Below, piece after piece: positions 1 through 58,751 of a DNA stretch of 58,751 nt; position 1 is the first letter of the stretch; the number at the start of each line of letters is the position of its first letter. The notes under the pieces are model-generated. The model was not told the origin of the DNA. It did no database searches and saw only the letters and a list, made by a program, of their open reading frames with translations. Position numbers and translations under genes: made by a program. Location: positions 1-58,751 of the IMG/VR virus record IMGVR_UViG_3300046168_000001; one strand, written 5' to 3'. Source of the DNA: a virus. Taxonomy: Duplodnaviria > Caudoviricetes.

Positions 1-67
1 GTCCCCAAGGTTCCTCATAGTCCTCTAACAGTACTCCTGATCGGGTAATAGTCTTAGTAAAGGGTTC

Positions 68-83
68 TATATACCCCTTATAG
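68..83 (+). promoter_or_regulatory. Putative phage RNAP promoter TATATACCCCTTATAG upstream of terminase
   Basis: 16-mer recurring at 6 unique intergenic sites; ends in TATAG like T7/SP6 promoters. Confidence 0.75.
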
Positions 84-196
84 ATACCATTAGTAGCTCT
101 ATAAGGCTCACTGACAGCCCTTAAAGGTACAAAGAGTAGGTATAGTACCTAAAAAGCCTAGCGGCGACTGAGCGAAGAGAGAAAGACACTATAAGT

Positions 197-209
197 ATCC
201 CGAAGGGAT
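197..209 (-). promoter_or_regulatory. ATCCC-GAA-GGGAT triloop hairpin (left DTR copy); candidate virion-RNAP promoter
   Basis: Same element as 58668-58680; covarying copy at 56115-56127. Confidence 0.5.
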
Positions 210-337
210 TCAAAGACATGATTGAATGATTAAGAGTACCCTGAGTGATTGAGGGGGTACGAAAGTAATCAGGGTACTCATATATATTGTTACTTTAATC
301 AGGCTTACTCAAAGACAATTAAGAGGACACAAGACAC

Positions 338-42729: not shown

Positions 42730-45048
42730 TTAGGCAAAGAAGTAATCAGATTCATAGATCTGTGTTACGTCTAGGTTGCCTAGCTCTGGTTGCTCTACGT
42801 CAAGGTTAGTAGCATCAGTAATGATGTTTTGTTGTATCAAGTCGTAGTAATTTTCTTTATCATACATTTCGATAAAGCTCTGTTTAGTCCTTGCTAATAG
42901 TGCTTCGACATCACATGCATGAGTGCTAAAGGAATCATGGACTGCTCCGAAATCACCGTTCCATTCCTCAATAACCAATGCCATATGACTGGCATCCTGA
43001 CTGTGAATGTAGTTAGGACTGACACCACACATAAATCCGCGAATGTCTGGGGTCTTCGTAGGTACTCTTGCCACATGGTTCACTCCTTTGTGTCCTTTAG
43101 ACTGAGACTTATAGCCACTTATAGTACCTCTACATTTTCGTGTAGCTGTAGTATAGTTCTGATAGATTACCTTAAACCCTGATGGTGTTACCCATGAGAG
43201 GTCGCTTCTACCGTTGCCATGTATCAGTTTACTTTTGTACGATCTAAGAAGTACTGTGAGTGTGTTGAGGTGTTCAATCTCTTCATCAGTTTTATCTTTC
43301 TTTGTGTACAATTCTTTCTGATCCTTGACCAGTTGTTTGTATTCTGGCCCAGCAGGTTCATTTTGATTATTGTATTTTAAATATTCACCTATCTCATACT
43401 GTGCTAGTTTTTGCAAGTATGCCATAGTATGCAGGGGTCCTGGGCATACAAGGTTGATTGCTTTAATTAGTAGCTTAGCTAGTTTATCACAGTCATCTTG
43501 TGTTATCCCATACTCTATGTGAAAGTCCTCTGCTTTACAATCAAAGAACATATTCTCAGCAATCTTCTTTGCACCTGCTGAGTATGCTCTTGTCATACTA
43601 CCACGTTTAGATATAGCTTTTCTAATATGTTTCATTGGCATCTGATCAAGAATGTCTTTAAGTCTTTCATCAGTTGTCAAATGGTACAGCTGCTTAGCAG
43701 TCTGAACATAGAAGTCATGTTGTATATCTACTGGTATTAGCCCTACAAGCCTCCCTGTCTGGCTGTCTTTAGAAATAGCACCTAGATGCTGCCAACCATT
43801 GTTAGACCCGTCTATGGGCACTGGAAGGTGGCTAACGTGGATTCTATTATCTTTGACTGCTCTTTGGTAATCAAACCACTCAAAGCAACAGGCTAGGAAT
43901 GACACAGATTTCTCTGCTATATCTGCTACGATACCTCTCCTACCCATTTCGACAATAACTTCCATGTTATCGTTAGTCCACCTTACCCTGTCCTCAAGGG
44001 TAAACTTATCTACGCTTATAGACTCTAGCTTTTCTTCTTCTAGGTATCCTGCGTAGTCAGCCTCACACCAGTCAGGTATCTCATCTATGTTATAACTCTG
44101 GTTGAATGTATTGGCTGTGTGTACAGCTAACCAGAAGAGACCGTCCTCTGTCATAGGTTTACCTCTAGCAAAGGTCATCATACCTCTGGCTAGGTCAGAC
44201 CCTTGATAGTTTAGGAAGGACTCTGAGTAGTATAGCCTACCCCTATAGTCTGCTTGCATGAACTGATAGAAGACATCGTGATCATATAGCAGCTTAGCTT
44301 TAGTAGTAATGAAACCCCACTCTACTAGTTTGCTTCTTCGTTTCATTTCTTTAGCGTCATTATCATCTATTGGTGTTGATGACACAAATGAATCTTTGTT
44401 TTCTATAAGAGTATCATACACACGCTGGTTAATTCTCCATCCAGTGCGTTGTAGTTTGTTTACTGAAGTAACCCAGGGGGTTCCAATCATAGGTTCAAAC
44501 CTTGCGTTGTCCTCTTCAGTCCACTCTTTAATTACAGGTTCACCATCTGGCTGTATGATTTTTGATATTCTATCCGGTCTTTCTAACACAGTATGTGTCA
44601 AAGAAATCCTCATCATTGCCTCTGGTATGTCAGCAAGATCTATCCACTTAGCTGTAGCTGATACAATATAACTAGTATCCCTTGTCTTTGGGTAGTATAT
44701 ATCTATGTACCCACAGTTATAGAATGCCTCTATGAAGAGATCACCCAACCTCACATGCATGTTCCAGGGTAACCCAGGGGGTTCCCTTTTGATTACACGT
44801 GCTATGCGTTGACCTATTGCTGTAGATACAGCTGTCAACTGTGCAGTCCCTGCAGGACTATCTGAGGTATCGTAGGTGAATCTCATTTGTATTGTTTGGA
44901 AAGCCACATTTATTAGTCGTGGCATTTCCTCTTTGTATTCTTTATACAATCTCAGAAGTACACCACCTGAGTTTGCCTTAGGGTTATTCGGATTAACCCT
45001 TGAGACCTTATCAACTAGGTACTCTGAGATGTTGTCGAATGGATTCAT
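42730..45048 (-). CDS. T7-like DNA-directed RNA polymerase (772 aa)
   Basis: DYRGRLY, QGSDLARG, PIDGSNNGWQHL, RKAISKRGSMTRAYS, WVTPSGF, PNYIHSQDA, VHDSF. Confidence 0.96.
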   Translation of the reverse strand: MNPFDNISEYLVDKVSRVNPNNPKANSGGVLLRLYKEYKEEMPRLINVAFQTIQMRFTYDTSDSPAGTAQLTAVSTAIGQRIARVIKREPPGLPWNMHVRLGDLFIEAFYNCGYIDIYYPKTRDTSYIVSATAKWIDLADIPEAMMRISLTHTVLERPDRISKIIQPDGEPVIKEWTEEDNARFEPMIGTPWVTSVNKLQRTGWRINQRVYDTLIENKDSFVSSTPIDDNDAKEMKRRSKLVEWGFITTKAKLLYDHDVFYQFMQADYRGRLYYSESFLNYQGSDLARGMMTFARGKPMTEDGLFWLAVHTANTFNQSYNIDEIPDWCEADYAGYLEEEKLESISVDKFTLEDRVRWTNDNMEVIVEMGRRGIVADIAEKSVSFLACCFEWFDYQRAVKDNRIHVSHLPVPIDGSNNGWQHLGAISKDSQTGRLVGLIPVDIQHDFYVQTAKQLYHLTTDERLKDILDQMPMKHIRKAISKRGSMTRAYSAGAKKIAENMFFDCKAEDFHIEYGITQDDCDKLAKLLIKAINLVCPGPLHTMAYLQKLAQYEIGEYLKYNNQNEPAGPEYKQLVKDQKELYTKKDKTDEEIEHLNTLTVLLRSYKSKLIHGNGRSDLSWVTPSGFKVIYQNYTTATRKCRGTISGYKSQSKGHKGVNHVARVPTKTPDIRGFMCGVSPNYIHSQDASHMALVIEEWNGDFGAVHDSFSTHACDVEALLARTKQSFIEMYDKENYYDLIQQNIITDATNLDVEQPELGNLDVTQIYESDYFFA

Positions 45049-50191: not shown

Positions 50192-50394
50192 TTATCGTTC
50201 CCTTCTGGCATGTCGCATTTAGGACAAATAGTATACTTTGAATCAATGCTCATAATGGAAAACTCCTTTCCGCAAATGTCGCATATGATTGTTTTAAACG
50301 GTTTGTCGGTTATGTGATCTTGTTTGCTTCTGTCCGATCTCATGCTCCAAAGTATCCCTCGTTGTTTACAGTCCTGTGTTCTTTTGGACCCCAT
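50188..50394 (-). CDS. Small Zn-ribbon protein
   Basis: CDICG...CPKC; start uncertain. Confidence 0.5.
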   Translation of the reverse strand: MGSKRTQDCKQRGILWSMRSDRSKQDHITDKPFKTIICDICGKEFSIMSIDSKYTICPKCDMPEGNDK

Positions 50395-50874: not shown

Positions 50875-51199
50875 CTCCAGACCCTTTCAATGTGTTTGCT
50901 TCTGCTCTTGCTTTTAGTTTATCCAGATTAGAAATAGCAATAAGATCAAGGTCAGTATCCAACTCTGAGGCAAGGACAGCGATATACCAAAGAGTATCAC
51001 CAAGTTCCATAGTAATAGCGTTAAGGGCTTCCTCGGCTTTTTCTGGGTCATTGTCGTAATCTCCACGAAGAATCTTCTTCACTTTGTTTGCGACCTCAGC
51101 AGCCTCTCCTGACAAACCTAATGCCAAGTACGGAAGTGCGTTATCTTTTGGATAGACAGCCGTTGTAACAGCCTTTGATTGGTAGTCATTTAGTTTCAT
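50864..51199 (-). CDS. mazG: MazG-like nucleotide pyrophosphohydrolase
   Basis: YQ..A..TA, LGLSGEAAEVANKVKK, ELGDTLWY, NLDKL..R...GSGDDR. Confidence 0.88.
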   Translation of the reverse strand: MKLNDYQSKAVTTAVYPKDNALPYLALGLSGEAAEVANKVKKILRGDYDNDPEKAEEALNAITMELGDTLWYIAVLASELDTDLDLIAISNLDKLKARAEANTLKGSGDDR

Positions 51200-51205
51200 A
51201 GTGTT

Positions 51206-51221
51206 TATATACCCCTTATAG
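51206..51221 (+). promoter_or_regulatory. Phage RNAP promoter copy pointing at the terS-like gene
   Basis: Exact TATATACCCCTTATAG. Confidence 0.75.
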
Positions 51222-51270
51222 AATTAATACCTTATTGATGACGAGGCTTGTCCTCGGCATAAAGATATAC

Positions 51271-51286
51271 CTATAAGGGGTATATG
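51271..51286 (-). promoter_or_regulatory. Phage RNAP promoter copy pointing at the replication operon
   Basis: Reverse complement reads CATATACCCCTTATAG (15/16). Confidence 0.75.
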
Positions 51287-51304
51287 GAATTTATGGAGAG
51301 AACA

Positions 51305-51709
51305 ATGCCTTTTAATCCAAAAAGTCTCAAGAACTTAAATGGTTCTTGGACTACTGAGTCTGCTAGAAAAGCACAGGCCAAGGGTGTAGAAACCCGCAAG
51401 GCCAATAAAGAAGCTAGAGAAGCTGCTAAAATGTCTATGGCTGAATGGAAGCTATACAAAACAGATGTTCTTGATCAGACTAATATGACATCTTTGGATG
51501 TCCTTAAGATAATGATGATTAAGGCTGTGTCAAAAGATGACATGGATACTGCAGTAGACATTGCAAAAACTTTAGCAGAATTTGAAGCACCTAAACTTGC
51601 ACGTGTCGATCAGACCAATGTAGAAATACAGGCTGAAGATTTATCTGATGAAGAACTGCAAGAACTATTAGATCAAGCAAGTGCCGAGGCGAGTGCCCCG
51701 CGACACTGA
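51305..51709 (+). CDS. Terminase small subunit-like protein (inverted single-gene island)
   Basis: NPKSLKNL...E.ARKAQAKG..RKA N-terminus, AEFEAPKL, LSDEEL; own promoter and terminator. Confidence 0.6.
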   Translation: MPFNPKSLKNLNGSWTTESARKAQAKGVETRKANKEAREAAKMSMAEWKLYKTDVLDQTNMTSLDVLKIMMIKAVSKDDMDTAVDIAKTLAEFEAPKLARVDQTNVEIQAEDLSDEELQELLDQASAEASAPRH

Positions 51710-51757
51710 TGCATTTTGTCGGTTACCCAAAAAAGATGCCTATGCGTTTTGTCGGTT
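51709..51757. repeat. Tandem ATGCRTTTTGTCGGTT motif (51709-51724, 51742-51757); third copy at 55988-56003
   Basis: Three intergenic copies with 15-16/16 identity. Confidence 0.8.
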
Positions 51758-51761
51758 AGCT

Positions 51762-51816
51762 AAAAGAAAATAAAAGAGTCCCTAGATACACATTGTAGTG
51801 TACCTAGGGGCTTTTT
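51762..51816. terminator. Bidirectional terminator
   Basis: A-rich run, AGTCCCTAG-ATACAC...GTGTAC-CTAGGGGCT, T-run; between convergent genes. Confidence 0.82.
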
Positions 51817-51821
51817 GGTTA

Positions 51822-52022
51822 TTATACGTGTGCTTTAGGGCGGCTACAAAAGTTACCACCAGTACCGTTTGGGCTACCTGCAGCTAACCGTGATACAGAT
51901 AAGTATCCTTGGTTGCTTGAGAATGAACCCTTGGGACCATATTGATCAGTAGTCCTACGGAACTGCAGGTTTTGCCGACCAATTGGGTTAACGATAATTT
52001 TTGCTTTAACTGCTTTTTGCAT
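51822..52022 (-). CDS. Hypothetical early protein
   Basis: ATG ORF ending at the terminator. Confidence 0.6.
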   Translation of the reverse strand: MQKAVKAKIIVNPIGRQNLQFRRTTDQYGPKGSFSSNQGYLSVSRLAAGSPNGTGGNFCSRPKAHV

Positions 52023-55100: not shown

Positions 55101-55780
55101 TCTGCGATCACTGGCTTCTTGCCTATCGATACGCTCAACATCTTCCATTTGGTCACGCAAGAAATGATACAGCTGAGTCATTTGCTCTGCAGGTGTTTTG
55201 TCATCGTATGGTACAAAACAAGTCTGCATGAATTGATAGTTATCTATCATTCTTTGTATTTTCTTTTCTGTAAGTGTCATTAGATTTCTTTCTGTTGTAA
55301 ATCTTTTTTGACTGTACAACCTTTTTACTTTGCCTGTTCATAAGCATGGCACGAGCAATACGGTTGACTGGTTTGATTGGATCCATCGTTATCTCTCTGT
55401 TGCTATATATTTTACAATGTTTAGTACAATGAACAATAGCAATATGATGATATAGATAGATCCGAACAACATTATATACTTACCACATCTTTATCATATT
55501 GAATTTCATATTCAGTGATATGTCTGATAAGTGCTACTTGTTCAATGACAAGAGCATCTGCAAGAATACCAGTAGCTTCATCAACATAGTCTGCTGCTGT
55601 TGATATGATTCTTCTGGATTTACTAACAGTGGTTTTGATACCCCTGTGTTTTGCACAGGATAACACAAGCATTACTTCAGCTTCTGTTAGTTTATCTTTA
55701 AGAGTAAACTCTACAGTATTATGAACGATAGCATTGATATCTTCTGTATCACTGTCACGCCATTCGTTGTCATTAGACAT
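52190..55780 (-). other. Dense cluster of roughly 15-20 small early hypothetical genes (e.g. 52190-52426, 52416-52643, 52865-53104, 53098-53316, 53309-53626, 53623-53868, 54187-54516, 54468-54902, 54844-55056, 55472-55780)
   Basis: Overlapping or coupled minus-strand ORFs, mostly acidic, no recognisable catalytic motifs. Confidence 0.75.
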
Positions 55781-55979
55781 GTTTCCAAATCCTCTCTTCA
55801 TGGTGACCTGCCCATGAACTAGCGTTGTTTTCAGCAAACTCAAAGATTGTCCACTCTACATCATCGTTAGTTCCTTCAGCAACTGTTCTGCGTCTGTCGG
55901 CTATAGAAAGTAAACGTTTGTAGACTCTGGCTTCAAAGGAATCTTTGAGAGCATCTGGTTCTGTAAATAGATTAATCGT
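55773..55979 (-). CDS. 68-aa ORF with non-canonical (ACG) or mutated start
   Basis: GGAGACTT-ACG ATT AAT CTA TTT ACA GAA CCA...TGG AAA CAT GTC TAA; in-frame stop upstream and no ATG. Confidence 0.5.
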   Translation of the reverse strand, partial: TINLFTEPDALKDSFEARVYKRLLSIADRRRTVAEGTNDDVEWTIFEFAENNASSWAGHHEERIWKHV

Positions 55980-56114
55980 AAGTCTCCATGCATTTTGTCG
56001 GTTCGACTAAAATTATCCGAGAGTAGCCCAAGGTTTCCCAAGGCTATCTCTGATGTTTGTACAAGGCTCCAATAGAGCAGGGTGGGCTACTATTTAGCCC
56101 TGCGAACATAAAGT

Positions 56115-56127
56115 GTCCCGAAGGGAC
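56115..56127 (-). promoter_or_regulatory. GTCCC-GAA-GGGAC triloop hairpin; candidate virion-RNAP promoter
   Basis: 21-mer AAGTGTCCCGAAGGGACTCAA matches the DTR element with one compensatory pair. Confidence 0.6.
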
Positions 56128-56139
56128 TCAATAATAAAT

Positions 56140-56730
56140 ATACAAGCGCCTCTGGTGCTTCAAGGCTAACTAAGACCGAGCACACAGAGTCGCTATACGA
56201 AACTGGCGAGATGTGGTGTAACAGTGTGACGGGATATGTTCCAGTTTAGTATGTTACAAACGCTGTCAGTGCATATAATTCTGTACAGGCCAAGACAGAC
56301 TCACTCGGCACAGTTGAAGCTGTACCACTACCCTCGCAAGGCAGCATTGCAATTTGAAGATGCGTGATCTGTAATTAGACCACGACTAGCTGTTTTCACC
56401 GGAATTGGTGCATACGGGACGCTTCTCTCCCCGTCTTGACTATATGCAGCACTGAACATCCGAGTCTTACTCTGCGATGTGCCCCACCATACTTATAAGT
56501 GTACCGCGCTTTGGGTTCTTTTGATGTATACTACGCTCTCACCGAGCTTCCACGTTTTTTCATTCTGTTACCATGTGTCCTATTGCTAGGCTAGACGCTT
56601 TTCCAATATGCTAGTCGTAGTTTGCAACACAGTGGGTACAGGCTATTGTGCCTGAGTTTCAGAGATAAACTGCAGCGGTTCTGCAGCACGTAGTATATGA
56701 AGAAAGCAGTTTAGTGTCATGCTAAGGACA
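56140..56730 (-). ncRNA. Candidate large structured non-coding RNA (unidentified)
   Basis: ORF-free; four nested long-range helices, two with minus-strand G-U pairs; GNRA-capped hairpin; crossing 7+7 bp helices. Confidence 0.55.
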
Positions 56731-56735
56731 TAGAA

Positions 56736-57248
56736 TTAGAACAGATCGCTAGGTGACCCTTGAACTTCTGCAGTTGGCTCAATAGAACCTACAGCTTCAA
56801 AGTCTACACCACCAGTTGGTGCATAGACTACAAGGTCTGTGATCTGAATAGCTGTGAGTGAGCTTGCAACGCCCTTACGACCAGCAGTGTCATATGGGTA
56901 TTGAAACACAATCACGTTAGCTTTGGAACCATTACCGATTGTGGTAACAGACTCCATAGGTGTGAGATCAGAGTTGACCACACGTACCTTGCCGTTAGTA
57001 TCACCATTTGCCTTGTGAGCTTTACGCTTAAGACTAGCAGTGAACATACCAGCAGCATCTTTGACCAATGCTCCATCTTTCCTACGGAACATGACATAGT
57101 TCTCTTCAAGCTCTTGGACTTTAGTTTCATCAGCAGTAGCAATTTGTAGCTCATACTGTTCAGTACCAAAAGGATTGACAGGCTTGTCAAGTTTAGGATA
57201 GTTGATAGTTACGTCATTGATCTTGAAATTACGTACTTCTGTTAGCAT
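56736..57248 (-). CDS. ssb: Single-stranded DNA-binding protein (T7 gp2.5/Enc34-like)
   Basis: YPKLDKP, IGNGSKANV, GVASSLTAIQITDLV, C-terminal acidic tail ending in Phe (SDLF). Confidence 0.8.
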   Translation of the reverse strand: MLTEVRNFKINDVTINYPKLDKPVNPFGTEQYELQIATADETKVQELEENYVMFRRKDGALVKDAAGMFTASLKRKAHKANGDTNGKVRVVNSDLTPMESVTTIGNGSKANVIVFQYPYDTAGRKGVASSLTAIQITDLVVYAPTGGVDFEAVGSIEPTAEVQGSPSDLF

Positions 57249-57515
57249 GGGATATTACCTTCCTAGCAAGTTACACAATATTGTGTTGATGATCAGATAT
57301 TGTAACGTGCACCCCTCCGCAAGCAATCTTATTTCTGGCTTTCACAGATTCATCAAGGGTAGTCTACATTTTTAAGTACACACCTGTTTACCCACATGAG
57401 GTTCTAATTAAAGCTGAATCATGTATGGTTACAGTATCTGAAGAGGTAAGATGTCAGTTCATTGTTCTGTACCATCTTACCAATTTGAGGACGCAGCTTG
57501 TCTGCGGCCTTCTTG

Positions 57516-57839: not shown

Positions 57840-57956
57840 TTAGTCTCCTAACCATTCGTTGAGTGCATGGATCAAAGGTGACAGGCACATGAATAAGAGA
57901 CCTGCCAGTGACGTTGCGAGACATACGGCAACAATAGCGAACACAATATCATACAT
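57840..57956 (-). CDS. Small membrane peptide (38 aa)
   Basis: MYDIVFAIVAVCLATSLAGLLFMCLSPLIHALNEWLGD. Confidence 0.55.
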   Translation of the reverse strand: MYDIVFAIVAVCLATSLAGLLFMCLSPLIHALNEWLGD

Positions 57957-58164
57957 TGTATTGACCTTTCCAGAATACAGTGATTACAACAGTAACCTCT
58001 GAGTTAGTGACAACATACATACCAGTAGAGTTGTCAATGAATGTGAACTTGTTGGGGTCAGTACGGTTGACCATCTTGACACCGTTGTTGGTAGTGTTGA
58101 TGATATCCTGTACTGTGCCACCACGCTCTGATAAGCGAGCTTTAGCATGTTTAGTGATATGCAT
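57949..58164 (-). CDS. DUF4258-like small protein
   Basis: ITKHAKARL.ERG...DI...G...VVITVF; AAAGGA RBS before ATG 58164. Confidence 0.65.
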   Translation of the reverse strand: MHITKHAKARLSERGGTVQDIINTTNNGVKMVNRTDPNKFTFIDNSTGMYVVTNSEVTVVITVFWKGQYNV

Positions 58165-58215
58165 GACAGATCCTTTCTGAGATCTTTGAGTGATGATGAG
58201 TATCCCTAAGGACAC

Positions 58216-58443: not shown

Positions 58444-58459
58444 CTATAAGGGGTATATA
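58444..58459 (-). promoter_or_regulatory. Phage RNAP promoter copy pointing into early genes
   Basis: Reverse complement is exact TATATACCCCTTATAG. Confidence 0.75.
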
Positions 58460-58471
58460 CAATTGAACATC

Positions 58472-58751
58472 GTCCCCAAGGTTCCTCATAGTCCTCTAAC
58501 AGTACTCCTGATCGGGTAATAGTCTTAGTAAAGGGTTCTATATACCCCTTATAGATACCATTAGTAGCTCTATAAGGCTCACTGACAGCCCTTAAAGGTA
58601 CAAAGAGTAGGTATAGTACCTAAAAAGCCTAGCGGCGACTGAGCGAAGAGAGAAAGACACTATAAGTATCCCGAAGGGATTCAAAGACATGATTGAATGA
58701 TTAAGAGTACCCTGAGTGATTGAGGGGGTACGAAAGTAATCAGGGTACTCA
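58472..58751. repeat. Right direct terminal repeat (280 bp)
   Basis: Identical to 1-280. Confidence 0.97.
58668..58680 (-). promoter_or_regulatory. ATCCC-GAA-GGGAT hairpin in right DTR; candidate first virion-RNAP promoter
   Basis: C-GAA-G triloop on the + (template) strand upstream of all early minus-strand genes. Confidence 0.6.

What the first reader, a model, noticed from the sequence alone, without database searches (positions are those of the whole stretch)
56140..56700. About 600-nt ORF-free region folding into a large nested RNA structure
Seen: in an otherwise gene-dense genome, four nested helices close one domain: 56303-56312/56647-56657, 56318-56329/56631-56644, 56344-56352/56622-56630 and 56379-56390/56610-56621. 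The last two are continuous 9- and 12-bp helices only when read on the minus strand with G-U pairs (GUGUUGCAA/UUGCAAUGC; ACUACGACUAGC/GCUAGUCGUGGU), which is the transcribed strand. Inside are CCUA-GCAA-UAGG (GNRA loop, 56579-56590), ACAUC..GAGU-AAG-ACUC..GAUGU and UGCAUAU/GUAUGCA. Inference: an early-expressed structured ncRNA (decoy, anti-defence RNA, ribozyme or scaffold). I do not recognise it as tRNA, tmRNA or RNase P.
Basis: partly seen in the sequence, partly recalled or inferred. Interest (0 to 1): 0.82.

Follow-up and report, generated by a model that had tools for sequence, protein, structure and literature searches.

The report
Shuffled RNA hairpin modules behind phage SSB
The gene-free stretch behind the single-strand-binding protein gene of this marine phage is a conserved chain of small self-folding RNA modules that related phages swap and rearrange, not one large folded RNA, and what the modules do is still unknown.

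Summary
The window is a complete 58.75-kb marine podophage, a distant relative of roseophage CRP-7. The stretch 55990-56735 has no ORF over 46 aa. Its substitutions show no codon periodicity (p 0.76-0.89, against 2.6e-17 in the SSB gene). It is conserved at least as well as the neighbouring gp2.5-like SSB gene.

They are not the conserved unit:
- 0 of 43 pairs show compensatory change.
- The pairing weakens in 9 relatives.
- The paired segments are absent or moved in most related phages.

What is conserved is a chain of local elements on the minus strand:
- a covarying "box" hairpin just after the SSB stop;
- module A1, closed by its own covarying helix;
- the multi-hairpin module A2;
- module B;
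- an invariant C hairpin with a U-rich tail;
- a UUCG hairpin.

Modules are gained, lost, replaced or moved to the other side of SSB, with junctions at shared (UC)UUCA/CAUCA linkers. No Rfam, tRNA or tmRNA match was found. RNA-library contigs from four studies cover parts of the stretch.

Best reading: a modular structured-RNA island co-transcribed with SSB. This is probably new RNA families, and their function has not been tested.

The parts
56736..57248 (-). gp2.5-like single-stranded-DNA-binding/annealing protein gene (170 aa). It is the anchor gene of the locus.
   Evidence: It matches PHROG 112 with E 1.1e-15. 26 related loci were found with it. Its substitutions show codon periodicity, p 2.6e-17.
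56698..56733 (-). 'Box': a 4-bp stem (56730-56727 with 56718-56715) around the conserved 8-nt loop CUKAGCAU, followed by AACUGCUYUCUUCA. It sits directly after the SSB stop codon.
   Evidence: Across 21 distinct copies the stem is 100% paired. 3 of 4 pairs change on both sides, with up to 4 pair types. The covariation score is 0.441 against 0.140 in shuffles, reached by 0 of 500. It is single-copy in the window: the CM hit scores 52.7 bits and the next best 15.9. Some relatives carry 2-3 copies. It is thermodynamically weak by itself (-2.1 kcal/mol, z -0.07).
56527..56696 (-). Module A1, about 170 nt. It is closed by the helix AUACUACGU/GCGUAGUAU (56696-56688 with 56536-56528). Inside are the hairpins CUGCAG/CUGCAG (56686-56670), CAGGC/GCCUG (56654-56639) and the GNRA hairpin CCUA-GCAA-UAGG (56590-56579).
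   Evidence: RNAalifold on 15 sequences places the closing helix, with two compensatory pairs (AU to UA and UA to CG in 5 of 15). The GCAA loop is GUAA in L083 and L132. The module is absent from L002-L006, L015-L019 and L023, and it lies upstream of SSB in L007-L013.
56354..56526 (-). Module A2, about 170 nt, with five hairpins. P1: 56515-56501 with 56492-56482. P2: 56480-56469 with 56465-56456. Then a variable middle hairpin pair, CACC/GGUG, and a 3' hairpin CGUGGUCU/AGAUCACG (56384-56377 with 56370-56363). It ends in CAUCUUCA.
   Evidence: On 31 distinct sequences 99.5% of cells are paired. 3 of 32 pairs change on both sides (29 cells against 9.7 in shuffles, 0 of 500), and the covariation score is 0.140 against 0.093. 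L014 shows two further compensatory pairs in the 3' hairpin. The middle hairpins are replaced by other hairpins in the L017 type. A2 is 82-96% identical where SSB is 76-88% identical.
56197..56353 (-). Module B, about 157 nt. It holds the hairpins CUGCC/GGUAG and GGUACAG/CUGUGCC (56326-56320 with 56313-56307), an optional sub-hairpin and UGUAACA/UGUUACA.
   Evidence: Compensatory changes are seen in L002 (U-A to G-C) and in L021/L120 (ACAG/CUGU to AUCGG/CCGU). B is absent in L007-L013 and L079, and is replaced by another module in L014, L040, L116 and L148.
56145..56194 (-). C hairpin: a stem of about 17 bp with two 1x1 internal loops and a 19-nt loop. It is followed by the U-rich tail UGUAUAUUUAUUAUU (56144-56128), so it looks like a terminator.
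   Evidence: It is invariant in the 27 sequences of alignment A5. L007 (CUCUA/UAGAG) and L008 (CUCUG/UGGAG) keep the pairing. It folds at -21.7 kcal/mol, z -2.33. There were 0 matches in one genome for each of 185,579 prokaryote species.
56115..56127 (-). UUCG-loop hairpin GUCCC-UUCG-GGGAC followed by ACUUUAUGUU. It is a second terminator-like site.
   Evidence: The terminator scan found it. The same element, with a G-C to A-U compensatory difference, lies in the terminal repeat at 198-208 and 58669-58679. In L002-type relatives a different hairpin plus U-rich tail sits at the same place.
55988..56004 (-). Motif GAACCGACAAAAUGCAU, immediately upstream of the ribosome-binding site of the next gene. 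It marks the far end of the ORF-free stretch.
   Evidence: There are 4 copies on the minus strand of the window (50296, 51709, 51742, 55988), against 0.24 expected by chance. The GAACCGACAA core is conserved in all loci aligned there.
56303..56657 (-).
   Evidence: The complementarity is real with z -5.7. There is no covariation, 0 of 43 pairs, and the pairing is weaker in relatives.
57300..57445 (-). A further ORF-free module, M1, upstream of SSB. A homologous piece lies downstream of SSB in L014.
   Evidence: The blastn map matches L014 4542-4632 to window 57445-57339 (sequences). Its fold is not supported: z +0.19.

Best explanation
The ORF-free stretch is the non-coding tail of the SSB transcription unit. 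It is built as a chain of self-contained RNA folding units read on the minus strand.

The order of elements is: SSB stop; box hairpin with a conserved loop; module A1; module A2; module B; the invariant C hairpin with a U-rich tail; a UUCG hairpin; and then the control region of the next gene.

The box, A2 and C are present in every related phage examined. A1, B and several other modules are optional cargo. They are gained, lost, replaced or moved to the other flank of SSB by recombination at the short shared linkers ((UC)UUCA/CAUCA) and at repeated box sequences.

Shown: the region is non-coding, strongly conserved, has compensatory base-pair changes in local helices and a mosaic distribution, and occurs in RNA libraries.

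Inferred:
- The chain is co-transcribed with SSB from a conserved promoter-like motif about 1.2 kb upstream and ends at the C and UUCG hairpins.
- The modules act as RNAs in their own right. They would be binding or decoy RNAs, possibly released by processing at the linkers, rather than only as padding of the SSB messenger. The grounds are that their position relative to SSB is interchangeable while their sequences, including loops and single strands, are held almost invariant.
For: Non-coding. No ORF over 46 aa touches the stretch. Variable columns show no codon phase in A2, A2+B+C or A1+A2 (p 0.76, 0.89, 0.82). The SSB gene gives p 2.6e-17. Indels of 1, 2, 10 and 21 nt fall in hairpin loops.

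Selection. Against L015, L017 and L019, SSB coding DNA is 76-88% identical in 50-nt bins (up to 96% at its two ends). A2, the 5' part of B, and C are 82-96% identical.

Local structure.
- Modules A1+A2 on 15 sequences: 98.5% of cells paired. 7 of 80 pairs have double changes, reached by 1 of 500 shuffles. Covariation score 0.092 against 0.061, reached by 0 of 500.
- A2 on 31 sequences: 99.5% paired, score 0.140 against 0.093, 0 of 500.
- Box on 21 copies: stem 100% paired, 3 of 4 pairs with double changes, 0 of 500.
- Hairpins are replaced by different hairpins at the same place.

Strand. The consensus fold is better on the minus strand for module A (-70.5 against -56.9 kcal/mol, SCI 0.69 against 0.61) and for A2 (-24.3 against -14.5, SCI 0.53 against 0.37). 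Invariant G-U pairs sit inside helices.

Modularity.
- Window 56703-56354 lies downstream of SSB in the window, L001, L021 and L022, but upstream of SSB in L007-L013 at 87-93% identity.
- A1 is missing in L002-L006, L015-L019 and L023.
- B is missing in L007-L013.
- Window 57445-57339 lies downstream of SSB in L014.
- Junctions fall at the shared linkers and at duplicated box ends.

Transcription.
- The motif TATATACCCCTTATAGA occurs on the minus strand at 58459, with no copy inside the island.
- The same sense-strand motif lies 1.05-1.6 kb upstream of SSB in 15 of 15 loci checked.
- A 151-nt contig from an RNA library (X2) bridges the SSB stop into A1 (56627-56770). Contigs of RNA libraries from 4 studies lie on parts of the island. 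22 of the 24 runs listed are on record as RNA.
Against: Thermodynamic stability is ordinary. Region and module z-scores run from -0.3 to -2.3, and the plus strand scores as well or better for A1 and B+C.

The strand test is a tie for C and for the box.

The homologues are one close clade. The 23-29 compensatory cells trace to few independent events, and the tool itself warns that the shuffle control does not correct for relatedness. The tested structures were also derived from the same alignments.

The RNA-library data are contigs only. They give no strand, no ends and no level, and DNA carry-over cannot be excluded.

No promoter, processing site or terminator was shown experimentally. The terminator reading of C rests on its shape alone, and the scan tool did not call it.

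Nothing tested here separates a trans-acting role from a purely cis-acting one.

The long-range complementarity between A1 and A2/B is highly non-random in this genome. The modular model does not explain it, except as an alternative pairing or a relic of an inverted duplication.
Confidence: 0.5

Rival explanations
1. The modules are purely cis-acting untranslated-region elements. They would be processing sites, nuclease-resistant caps, terminators and translational operators that set the level and lifetime of the abundant SSB messenger and insulate it from the next gene. No module would have a job of its own.
For: Every module found is next to SSB, on one flank or the other. The box follows the SSB stop in all loci. 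C plus its U-rich tail and the UUCG hairpin look like tandem terminators. Two alternative hairpin types occupy the terminator position. Contigs from RNA libraries bridge SSB into the island. From my own knowledge, not from any call: T7 early messengers carry RNase III hairpins between genes that also stabilise 3' ends, and T4 gene 32 is autoregulated through a structured leader.
Against: Generic stabilising hairpins would not need near-invariant loops and single strands over about 170 nt. Modules keep their sequence whether they sit in the 5' or the 3' flank. L007-L013 manage with only box and C downstream of SSB. About 600 nt is long for a 3' tail in a gene-dense 58.7-kb genome. A more distant relative (L024, SSB 55% identical) has genes directly after SSB.
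Confidence: 0.3
2. One large ncRNA has a core domain closed by the four nested long-range helices between 56303-56390 and 56610-56657, with the inner hairpins as peripheral elements.
For: The 43 complementary pairs are present. The duplex is -50.3 kcal/mol, z -5.7, reached by 0 of 1000 shuffles. The constrained fold is within 5 kcal/mol of the MFE, and the MFE itself contains helix 4. 8 of the 10 sequences that hold both partners have z below -1.2, and helices 1 and 3 are 93% and 99% paired.
Against: 0 of 43 pairs change on both sides, and the percentage paired does not exceed shuffles (383 of 500). Helix 2 is 81% paired. Helix 4 is 43% paired in register; by eye it survives only with a shift or bulge. 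Pair probabilities are 0.001-0.014. The A1 partner is absent in L002-L006, L015-L019 and L023. The B partner is absent in L007-L013. In both groups the 3' partner sequences stay invariant. A1 has its own covarying closing helix that crosses helix 4. L027 has an insertion of about 140 nt between A2 and B.
Confidence: 0.1
3. The element acts at the DNA level. It would be a replication origin, a primosome-loading or recombination hot spot whose hairpins form in single-stranded DNA, or a structured pre-primer transcript.
For: It lies among replication genes: SSB here, with primase/helicase and DNA polymerase further along. Hairpin covariation alone does not tell RNA from single-stranded DNA. The strand test is a tie for C and the box. 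Module junctions are recombination points.
Against: The stretch is the most GC-rich 1-kb bin, not AT-rich. There are no iterons or repeated binding sites inside it. G-U-dependent helices and better consensus folds on the transcribed strand are seen for A and A2. An origin would not be expected to vary in module content and position among close relatives. Parts of the stretch occur in RNA libraries.
Confidence: 0.07
4. The stretch is decayed or unconventional coding sequence: gene remnants, small peptides, or a gene read with a non-standard start or code.
For: Small ORFs of 31-43 aa exist on both strands. The next gene downstream does appear to use a non-standard ATT start, so odd starts occur in this phage.
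Against: There is no codon periodicity of substitutions (p 0.76-0.89), against 2.6e-17 for SSB. Indels are not multiples of three and sit inside the candidate ORFs. ORFs of 60 aa or more in relatives are not shared between loci. Conservation is higher than that of flanking genes, which does not fit decay.
Confidence: 0.03

Closest known systems
PeSL cassettes (promoter-early stem-loops) of T4-type phages. I read the abstract and outline of PMC4122927. PMC2839356 I saw only in the search listing.
   Same: Short conserved stem-loop-containing sequences are repeated at the borders of variable segments. They serve as points of exchange between otherwise unrelated sequences in close relatives. Here, duplicated box ends and the (UC)UUCA linkers sit at the indel junctions.
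   Different: By the abstract, PeSLs are composite terminator/promoter motifs that flank variable protein genes. They are scattered through hyperplastic regions of large myoviruses. Here the swapped cargo has no ORFs. A sigma-70-like promoter overlaps the box only in the window type (10 of 12 matches). The box is single-copy in this genome, and its stem covaries around a fixed loop, which points to an RNA or protein-recognition hairpin.
RNase III processing hairpins between the early genes of T7-like phages (from my own knowledge; no paper read here).
   Same: The phage has a T7-type RNA polymerase. It has intergenic hairpins of 15-20 bp with internal loops on the sense strand of an early/middle operon. 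The C hairpin is an example.
   Different: T7 sites are single hairpins of about 60 nt between genes. They are not a gene-free chain of about 700 nt, and they are not known to me as mobile modules. Cleavage was not testable here.
Large phage-associated structured ncRNAs such as GOLLD and ROOL (Rfam families; their properties recalled from my own knowledge).
   Same: Several hundred nucleotides of ORF-free, GC-enriched, conserved, multi-hairpin RNA with GNRA loops in a phage genome.
   Different: There is no match to any of 4227 Rfam models, at gathering score over the window or at E up to 0.1 in 8 related loci. There is no evidence for one global fold. The unit here is the module, and module content varies.
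3'-UTR-derived small RNAs of bacteria (from my own knowledge).
   Same: The conserved structured RNA lies between a stop codon and a terminator-like hairpin with a U-rich tail. It is co-transcribed with the upstream gene.
   Different: The tail is much longer and has many modules. No seed-target pairing was found within the phage genome beyond chance (10 complementary 12-mers). Host targets could not be searched because the host is unknown.
Phage tRNA gene clusters.
   Same: They are arrays of small, self-closed RNA units separated by short linkers. They vary in content among close relatives and are conserved like essential genes.
   Different: ARAGORN finds no tRNA or tmRNA. The modules are 36-170 nt and show no cloverleaf.

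Membership tests
Any Rfam 15 family (ribozymes, riboswitches, GOLLD, ROOL, 6S, Y RNA and so on) | Score at or above the family's gathering threshold | tested here: not met
   There were 0 matches at gathering score over the whole window. At E up to 10 over 55700-57000 there were 4 matches of 12-21 bits, against gathering scores of 53-124. There were 0 matches at E up to 0.1 in 8 related loci, 67,078 bases.
tRNA / tmRNA | Cloverleaf or tmRNA architecture detectable by ARAGORN | tested here: not met
   0 genes in the window.
PeSL (T4-type promoter-early stem-loop cassette) | Conserved stem-loop motif at the junctions of indels and replacements between close relatives | tested here: met
   Box copies and (UC)UUCA linkers sit at the module borders. 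The L015 insertion is flanked by a duplicated CTGCTCTCTTCA, and L021 has an extra box between A1 and A2.
PeSL (T4-type promoter-early stem-loop cassette) | Composite of an early host-type promoter with a terminator stem-loop | tested here: not met
   A sigma-70-like match (10 of 12) overlaps the box only where A1 supplies TATACT. In the L002 and L007 types the -10 position is poor when read by eye. The stem is only 4-5 bp and has no U-tail.
PeSL (T4-type promoter-early stem-loop cassette) | Flanks variable protein-coding ORFs and is repeated many times per genome | tested here: not met
   The cargo modules are ORF-free. The window has one box, and relatives have up to 3 in the DNA held.
Intrinsic (hairpin plus U-tail) terminator | Stable GC-rich hairpin immediately followed by a U-rich run | tested here: inconclusive
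   The UUCG hairpin at 56127-56115 passes the scan. The C hairpin (-21.7 kcal/mol) is followed by UGUAUAUUUAUUAUU, but it was not called by the scan. Termination itself was not measured.
RNase III site of T7-type early messengers | Cleavage by RNase III within a hairpin of about 20 bp carrying an internal loop | not testable with these tools
   Only the shape of the C hairpin is compatible.
   0 of 43 pairs have double changes and the pairing is not above shuffles. One or other partner segment is absent in most loci.

The most novel reading that the evidence does not exclude
The SSB flanks of this marine phage clade would be a hyperplastic 'RNA cargo island'. In it, self-folding non-coding RNA modules, rather than small protein genes, are the accessory units exchanged between phages at shared linker and box sequences. 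The modules would be expressed by riding on the abundant SSB transcript. They would work as decoys or binders against host factors such as nucleases, defence sensors or RNA-binding proteins. That would make them an RNA counterpart of the accessory and anti-defence gene islands of phage early regions.
Probability: 0.2. Interest if true: 0.85.

Novelty: new variant of a known kind. Interest (0 to 1): 0.55.

Why it matters
Phage accessory and anti-defence functions are almost always sought among small proteins. Here about 700 nt next to an essential, highly expressed gene is non-coding, yet it is conserved at least as well as that gene. It is built from RNA folding units that closely related, widely sampled marine phages shuffle like gene cassettes.

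If the modules act as RNAs, they would define several new RNA families and a new mode of accessory-function exchange. They would also give concrete, short, testable RNAs: the box loop, A2 and C. If they are only messenger-control elements, they still give an unusually clear natural experiment on how untranslated-region modules are recombined.

The conserved unit is the module, not the nested 350-nt domain.

Tried and rejected
Folding energy as evidence. Region and module z-scores (-0.3 to -2.3, both strands) neither support nor exclude structure. I did not use them for the verdict.

Known families. Rfam and ARAGORN found nothing.

Phage collection. blastn of 55900-56800 against 50,697 phage records gave no match. 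The tool notes that near-identical records may be left out.

CRP-7. This is the closest cultured relative, with 38% RNA polymerase identity. Its annotated first 20 kb shows no comparable gene-free gap, so it gave no help.

Hosts and prophages. Two patterns, the C hairpin and the A2 core, gave 0 matches in one genome for each of 185,579 prokaryote species.

18-mer scans. Many hits were chance matches. Of the 159 loci then held, 74 matched the 636-nt query by blastn. Nine non-matching loci inspected by eye share only the 18-mer.

Antisense targets in the phage genome. There were only 10 complementary 12-mers, judged by eye to be about chance level and with no pattern.

Box as a pseudoknot. Pairing of the loop GAGCA with the downstream UGCUC is 97% paired but has no double changes, and 3 copies have U-U. 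This is left open.

Box as a promoter. The variable spacing (35-41 nt) and the covarying stem argue against a fixed polymerase site.

M1 module fold. Not supported, z +0.19.

Neighbouring small proteins. 4 of 10 proteins had no PHROG family. 9 of 10 had no Pfam family. The tenth had a sub-threshold DUF4258 hit. No RNA-binding or RNA-processing partner was found.

RNA-library coverage gaps. In run X3 contigs lie on 56212-56716 (word depth up to 25) and none lie on SSB. In X4 and X8 the SSB contigs have the higher depth. These are contigs, so I draw nothing from the gaps or the depths.

Papers. Two searches for a description of such an element returned general structured-RNA surveys and nothing on this phage group. 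They were 'noncoding RNA / marine phage / intergenic region / covariation / structured RNA' and 'bacteriophage / noncoding RNA / anti-defense / structured RNA / intergenic'. This covers only the held library. Supplementary files of papers were not opened and might list such motifs.
Full report
Setting.
The window is a complete virus record of 58,751 bp with an exact 280-bp direct terminal repeat. It encodes a terminase and a portal on the plus strand. A minus-strand block runs from the right end. This block holds small ORFs, a gp2.5-like SSB (56736-57248), DNA polymerase, primase/helicase and a T7-type single-subunit RNA polymerase (42730-45048). The nearest cultured phage is Roseobacter phage CRP-7, with RNA polymerase 38.2% identical over 100% of the query. 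CRP-7 is 58.1 kb with 40.3% G+C and founds a widely distributed marine group (passages of PMC6918029 read). Its annotated early region shows no comparable gap.

The observation.
Between the SSB stop (56736) and the next gene (from about 55976) there is no ORF longer than 46 aa on either strand. The 1-kb bin 56001-57000 is the most GC-rich of 58 bins, at 0.461. The quoted inner hairpins are there too.

This long-range complementarity is not chance. RNAduplex of 56657-56610 against 56390-56303 gives -50.3 kcal/mol, against -27.7 +/- 3.9 for dinucleotide shuffles (z -5.7, 0 of 1000).

The fold as such is not favoured, however:
- Forcing the helices costs 5 kcal/mol, and their pair probabilities are 0.001-0.014.
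- The 736-nt region folds with z -1.71 (minus) and -0.92 (plus).
- The single modules give z -0.3 to -2.3 with no consistent strand preference.

Relatives.
The SSB protein retrieved 26 IMG/VR loci. An 18-mer from the most conserved part retrieved 27 viral stretches and 107 metagenome stretches. Of the 159 loci then held, 74 matched the 636-nt query by blastn, and the other hits inspected were chance 18-mer matches. After removing duplicates this gave:
- 14 sequences for A1+A2;
- 30 for A2;
- 14 for B;
- 12 for C;
- 26 for A2+B+C.

The region is a mosaic.
The blastn map and the alignments show segments that behave independently.
- Window 56703-56354 (A1+A2) follows SSB in the window, L001, L021 and L022. 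In L007-L013 it precedes SSB at 87-93% identity, and there only the box and C follow SSB.
- A1 (56696-56527) is missing from L002-L006, L015-L019 and L023. Other sequences of 50-215 nt take its place.
- B (56353-56197) is missing from L007-L013 and L079. It is replaced by another module in L014, L040, L116 and L148, and it carries an optional sub-hairpin.
- L005, L027, L116 and L148 carry an extra module between A2 and B. L021 carries an extra box between A1 and A2.
- A module upstream of SSB in the window (57445-57339) lies downstream of SSB in L014.
- Junctions fall at short shared linkers ((UC)UUCA or CAUCA) or at duplicated box ends.

They therefore cannot exist in most relatives, yet their 3' partner sequences stay invariant in those relatives.

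On 10 sequences, 0 of 43 pairs change on both sides. 75.7% of cells are paired, and 383 of 500 shuffles do at least as well. By helix the paired fractions are 93%, 81%, 99% and 43%. The duplex z-scores are:
- -5.85 for the window;
- -4.66 for L120;
- -2.96, -2.87, -2.51, -2.09, -2.03, -1.30, -1.12 and -0.58 for the other eight.

So there is a persistent but decaying complementarity. It is strongest in this genome and has no compensatory support. It may be an alternative pairing or the trace of an inverted duplication. It is not the conserved architecture.

What is conserved.
RNAalifold and pair counts support local elements.
- A1 is closed by AUACUACGU/GCGUAGUAU, with two compensatory pairs in 5 of 15 sequences.
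- On modules A1+A2 (15 sequences), 98.5% of cells are paired. 7 of 80 pairs have double changes (1 of 500 shuffles). The covariation score is 0.092 against 0.061 (0 of 500).
- A2 on 31 sequences is 99.5% paired. 3 of 32 pairs carry 29 double-changed cells, against 9.7 in shuffles. The score is 0.140 against 0.093 (0 of 500).
- L014 adds two compensatory pairs in the A2 3' hairpin.
- B shows U-A to G-C in L002, and ACAG/CUGU to AUCGG/CCGU in L021 and L120.
- C is invariant in 27 sequences. The L007 and L008 types change CUCUG/CAGAG to CUCUA/UAGAG and to CUCUG/UGGAG. The latter is paired only as RNA of the minus strand.
- Whole hairpins are replaced by other hairpins at the same place.
- The GNRA loop GCAA is GUAA in two relatives.

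The clearest case is the box directly after the SSB stop. Across 21 distinct copies, a 4-5-bp stem takes four different Watson-Crick forms around the fixed loop CUGAGCAU. It is 100% paired, 3 of 4 pairs change on both sides, and the score is 0.441 against 0.140 (0 of 500). By itself the stem is weak (-2.1 kcal/mol). A stem this weak yet this well kept suggests that it is recognised by something.

Caveats for all of this: the sequences form one close clade, the counted cells are not independent events, and the structures were derived from the same alignments.

Non-coding and selected.
Variable columns are evenly spread over the three phases in A2, A2+B+C and A1+A2 (p 0.76, 0.89, 0.82). In SSB they are 121, 46 and 27 by phase (p 2.6e-17). 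Against L015, L017 and L019, SSB DNA is 76-88% identical in 50-nt bins through most of the gene, and up to 96% at its two ends. A2, the start of B, and C are 82-96% identical.

Strand and transcription.
Consensus folds are better on the minus strand for module A (-70.5 against -56.9 kcal/mol) and for A2 (-24.3 against -14.5). They are tied for C and the box.

A 15-17-nt motif, TATATACCCCTTATAGA, recurs at 68/58539, 1991, 22613 and 51206 on the plus strand and at 58459 and 51285 on the minus strand. I read it as the phage polymerase promoter; this is inference. The sense copy lies 1.05-1.6 kb upstream of SSB in 15 of 15 loci checked, and none lies inside the island.

The C hairpin (-21.7 kcal/mol, z -2.33) is followed by a U-rich run. 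Then comes a UUCG hairpin that passes the terminator scan. The UUCG hairpin has a copy in the terminal repeat that carries a compensatory G-C to A-U difference.

24 public runs hold part of 55900-57300. 22 of them are on record as RNA, from 13 studies. I laid 4 of the 24. Contigs from all four lie on parts of the island, and one contig bridges the SSB stop into A1 (56627-56770). These are contigs, so strand, ends and level are unknown and DNA carry-over is possible.

What it is not.
- No Rfam family matches.
- There is no tRNA or tmRNA.
- There is no copy in the genomes of 185,579 prokaryote species.
- There is no second box in the window.
- There is no antisense target in the phage genome beyond chance.
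- No recognisable RNA-binding or RNA-processing protein lies next door.
- A more distant relative (L024, SSB 55% identical) has genes directly after SSB. The island therefore belongs to this clade.

Interpretation.
The best-supported reading is a modular island of structured RNA in the SSB transcription unit. It is bounded by the box and by terminator-like hairpins. It has universal elements (box, A2, C) and optional cargo (A1, B and others), exchanged at shared linkers.

The exchange pattern works like the PeSL cassettes of T4-type phages (abstract of PMC4122927). The cargo here is RNA, however, and two defining PeSL features are not met: the promoter component, and the flanking of ORFs.

I favour modules that act as RNAs in their own right, for two reasons. 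Their place relative to SSB is free, and their loops and single strands are fixed. A purely cis-acting role in SSB messenger control is nearly as likely, and nothing tested here separates the two.

Noticed in passing
window 55776-55976 (-): The conserved gene of about 66 codons just downstream of the island (protein motif ARVYKRLL) has no ATG, GTG or TTG start in the window. The frame opens at ATT (55976-55974), 7 nt after GGAG. L002-L005 share ATT AAT at the same place. L014, L015, L017 and L019 have ATG there, and L021 and L022 start with a different ATG-led N-terminus. It looks like a genuine AUU start, or some other non-standard initiation.
   Followed up: partly
window 50296-50312, 51709-51725, 51742-51758, 55988-56004 (-): The motif (T/G)AACCGACAAAAYGCAT occurs 4 times on the minus strand, against 0.24 expected. 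Two copies sit in tandem 33 nt apart at the end of the plus-strand ORF 51284-51709. One copy sits directly before the ribosome-binding site of the gene after the island. It could be an operator, a second promoter class or a termination signal.
   Followed up: partly
window 68-84 (= 58539-58555), 1991, 22613, 51206 (+); 58459, 51285 (-): The 15-17-nt motif TATATACCCCTTATAGA recurs before gene blocks on both strands. It forms divergent pairs at 58459/58539 and at 51206/51285. It is a candidate promoter of the phage's own RNA polymerase, and it is conserved upstream of SSB in 15 of 15 related loci.
   Followed up: partly
window 1-280 and 58472-58751: An exact 280-bp direct terminal repeat. It contains a copy of the UUCG hairpin element (198-208 / 58669-58679) that also ends the island. 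The two copies differ by a compensatory G-C to A-U change.
   Followed up: partly
window 51284-51709 (+): A single plus-strand ORF (141 aa, no Pfam family) sits inside the minus-strand block. A promoter-like motif lies just upstream at 51206. The local GC skew is reversed in this bin (+0.075 in 51001-52000).
   Followed up: no
L005 4797-4813, L015 4552-4568 and 20 other loci: A hairpin with a fixed loop, CAGG-GAUGAUAAA-CCUG, opens two different optional modules that the window lacks. It is present in 22 of the 161 loci held. It is another recurring recognition-type hairpin of the same island.
   Followed up: no
window 57949-58215 (-): An 88-aa early protein has a weak DUF4258 match (E 1.2e-4, 22.7 bits, below the cut-off of 25).
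   Followed up: no
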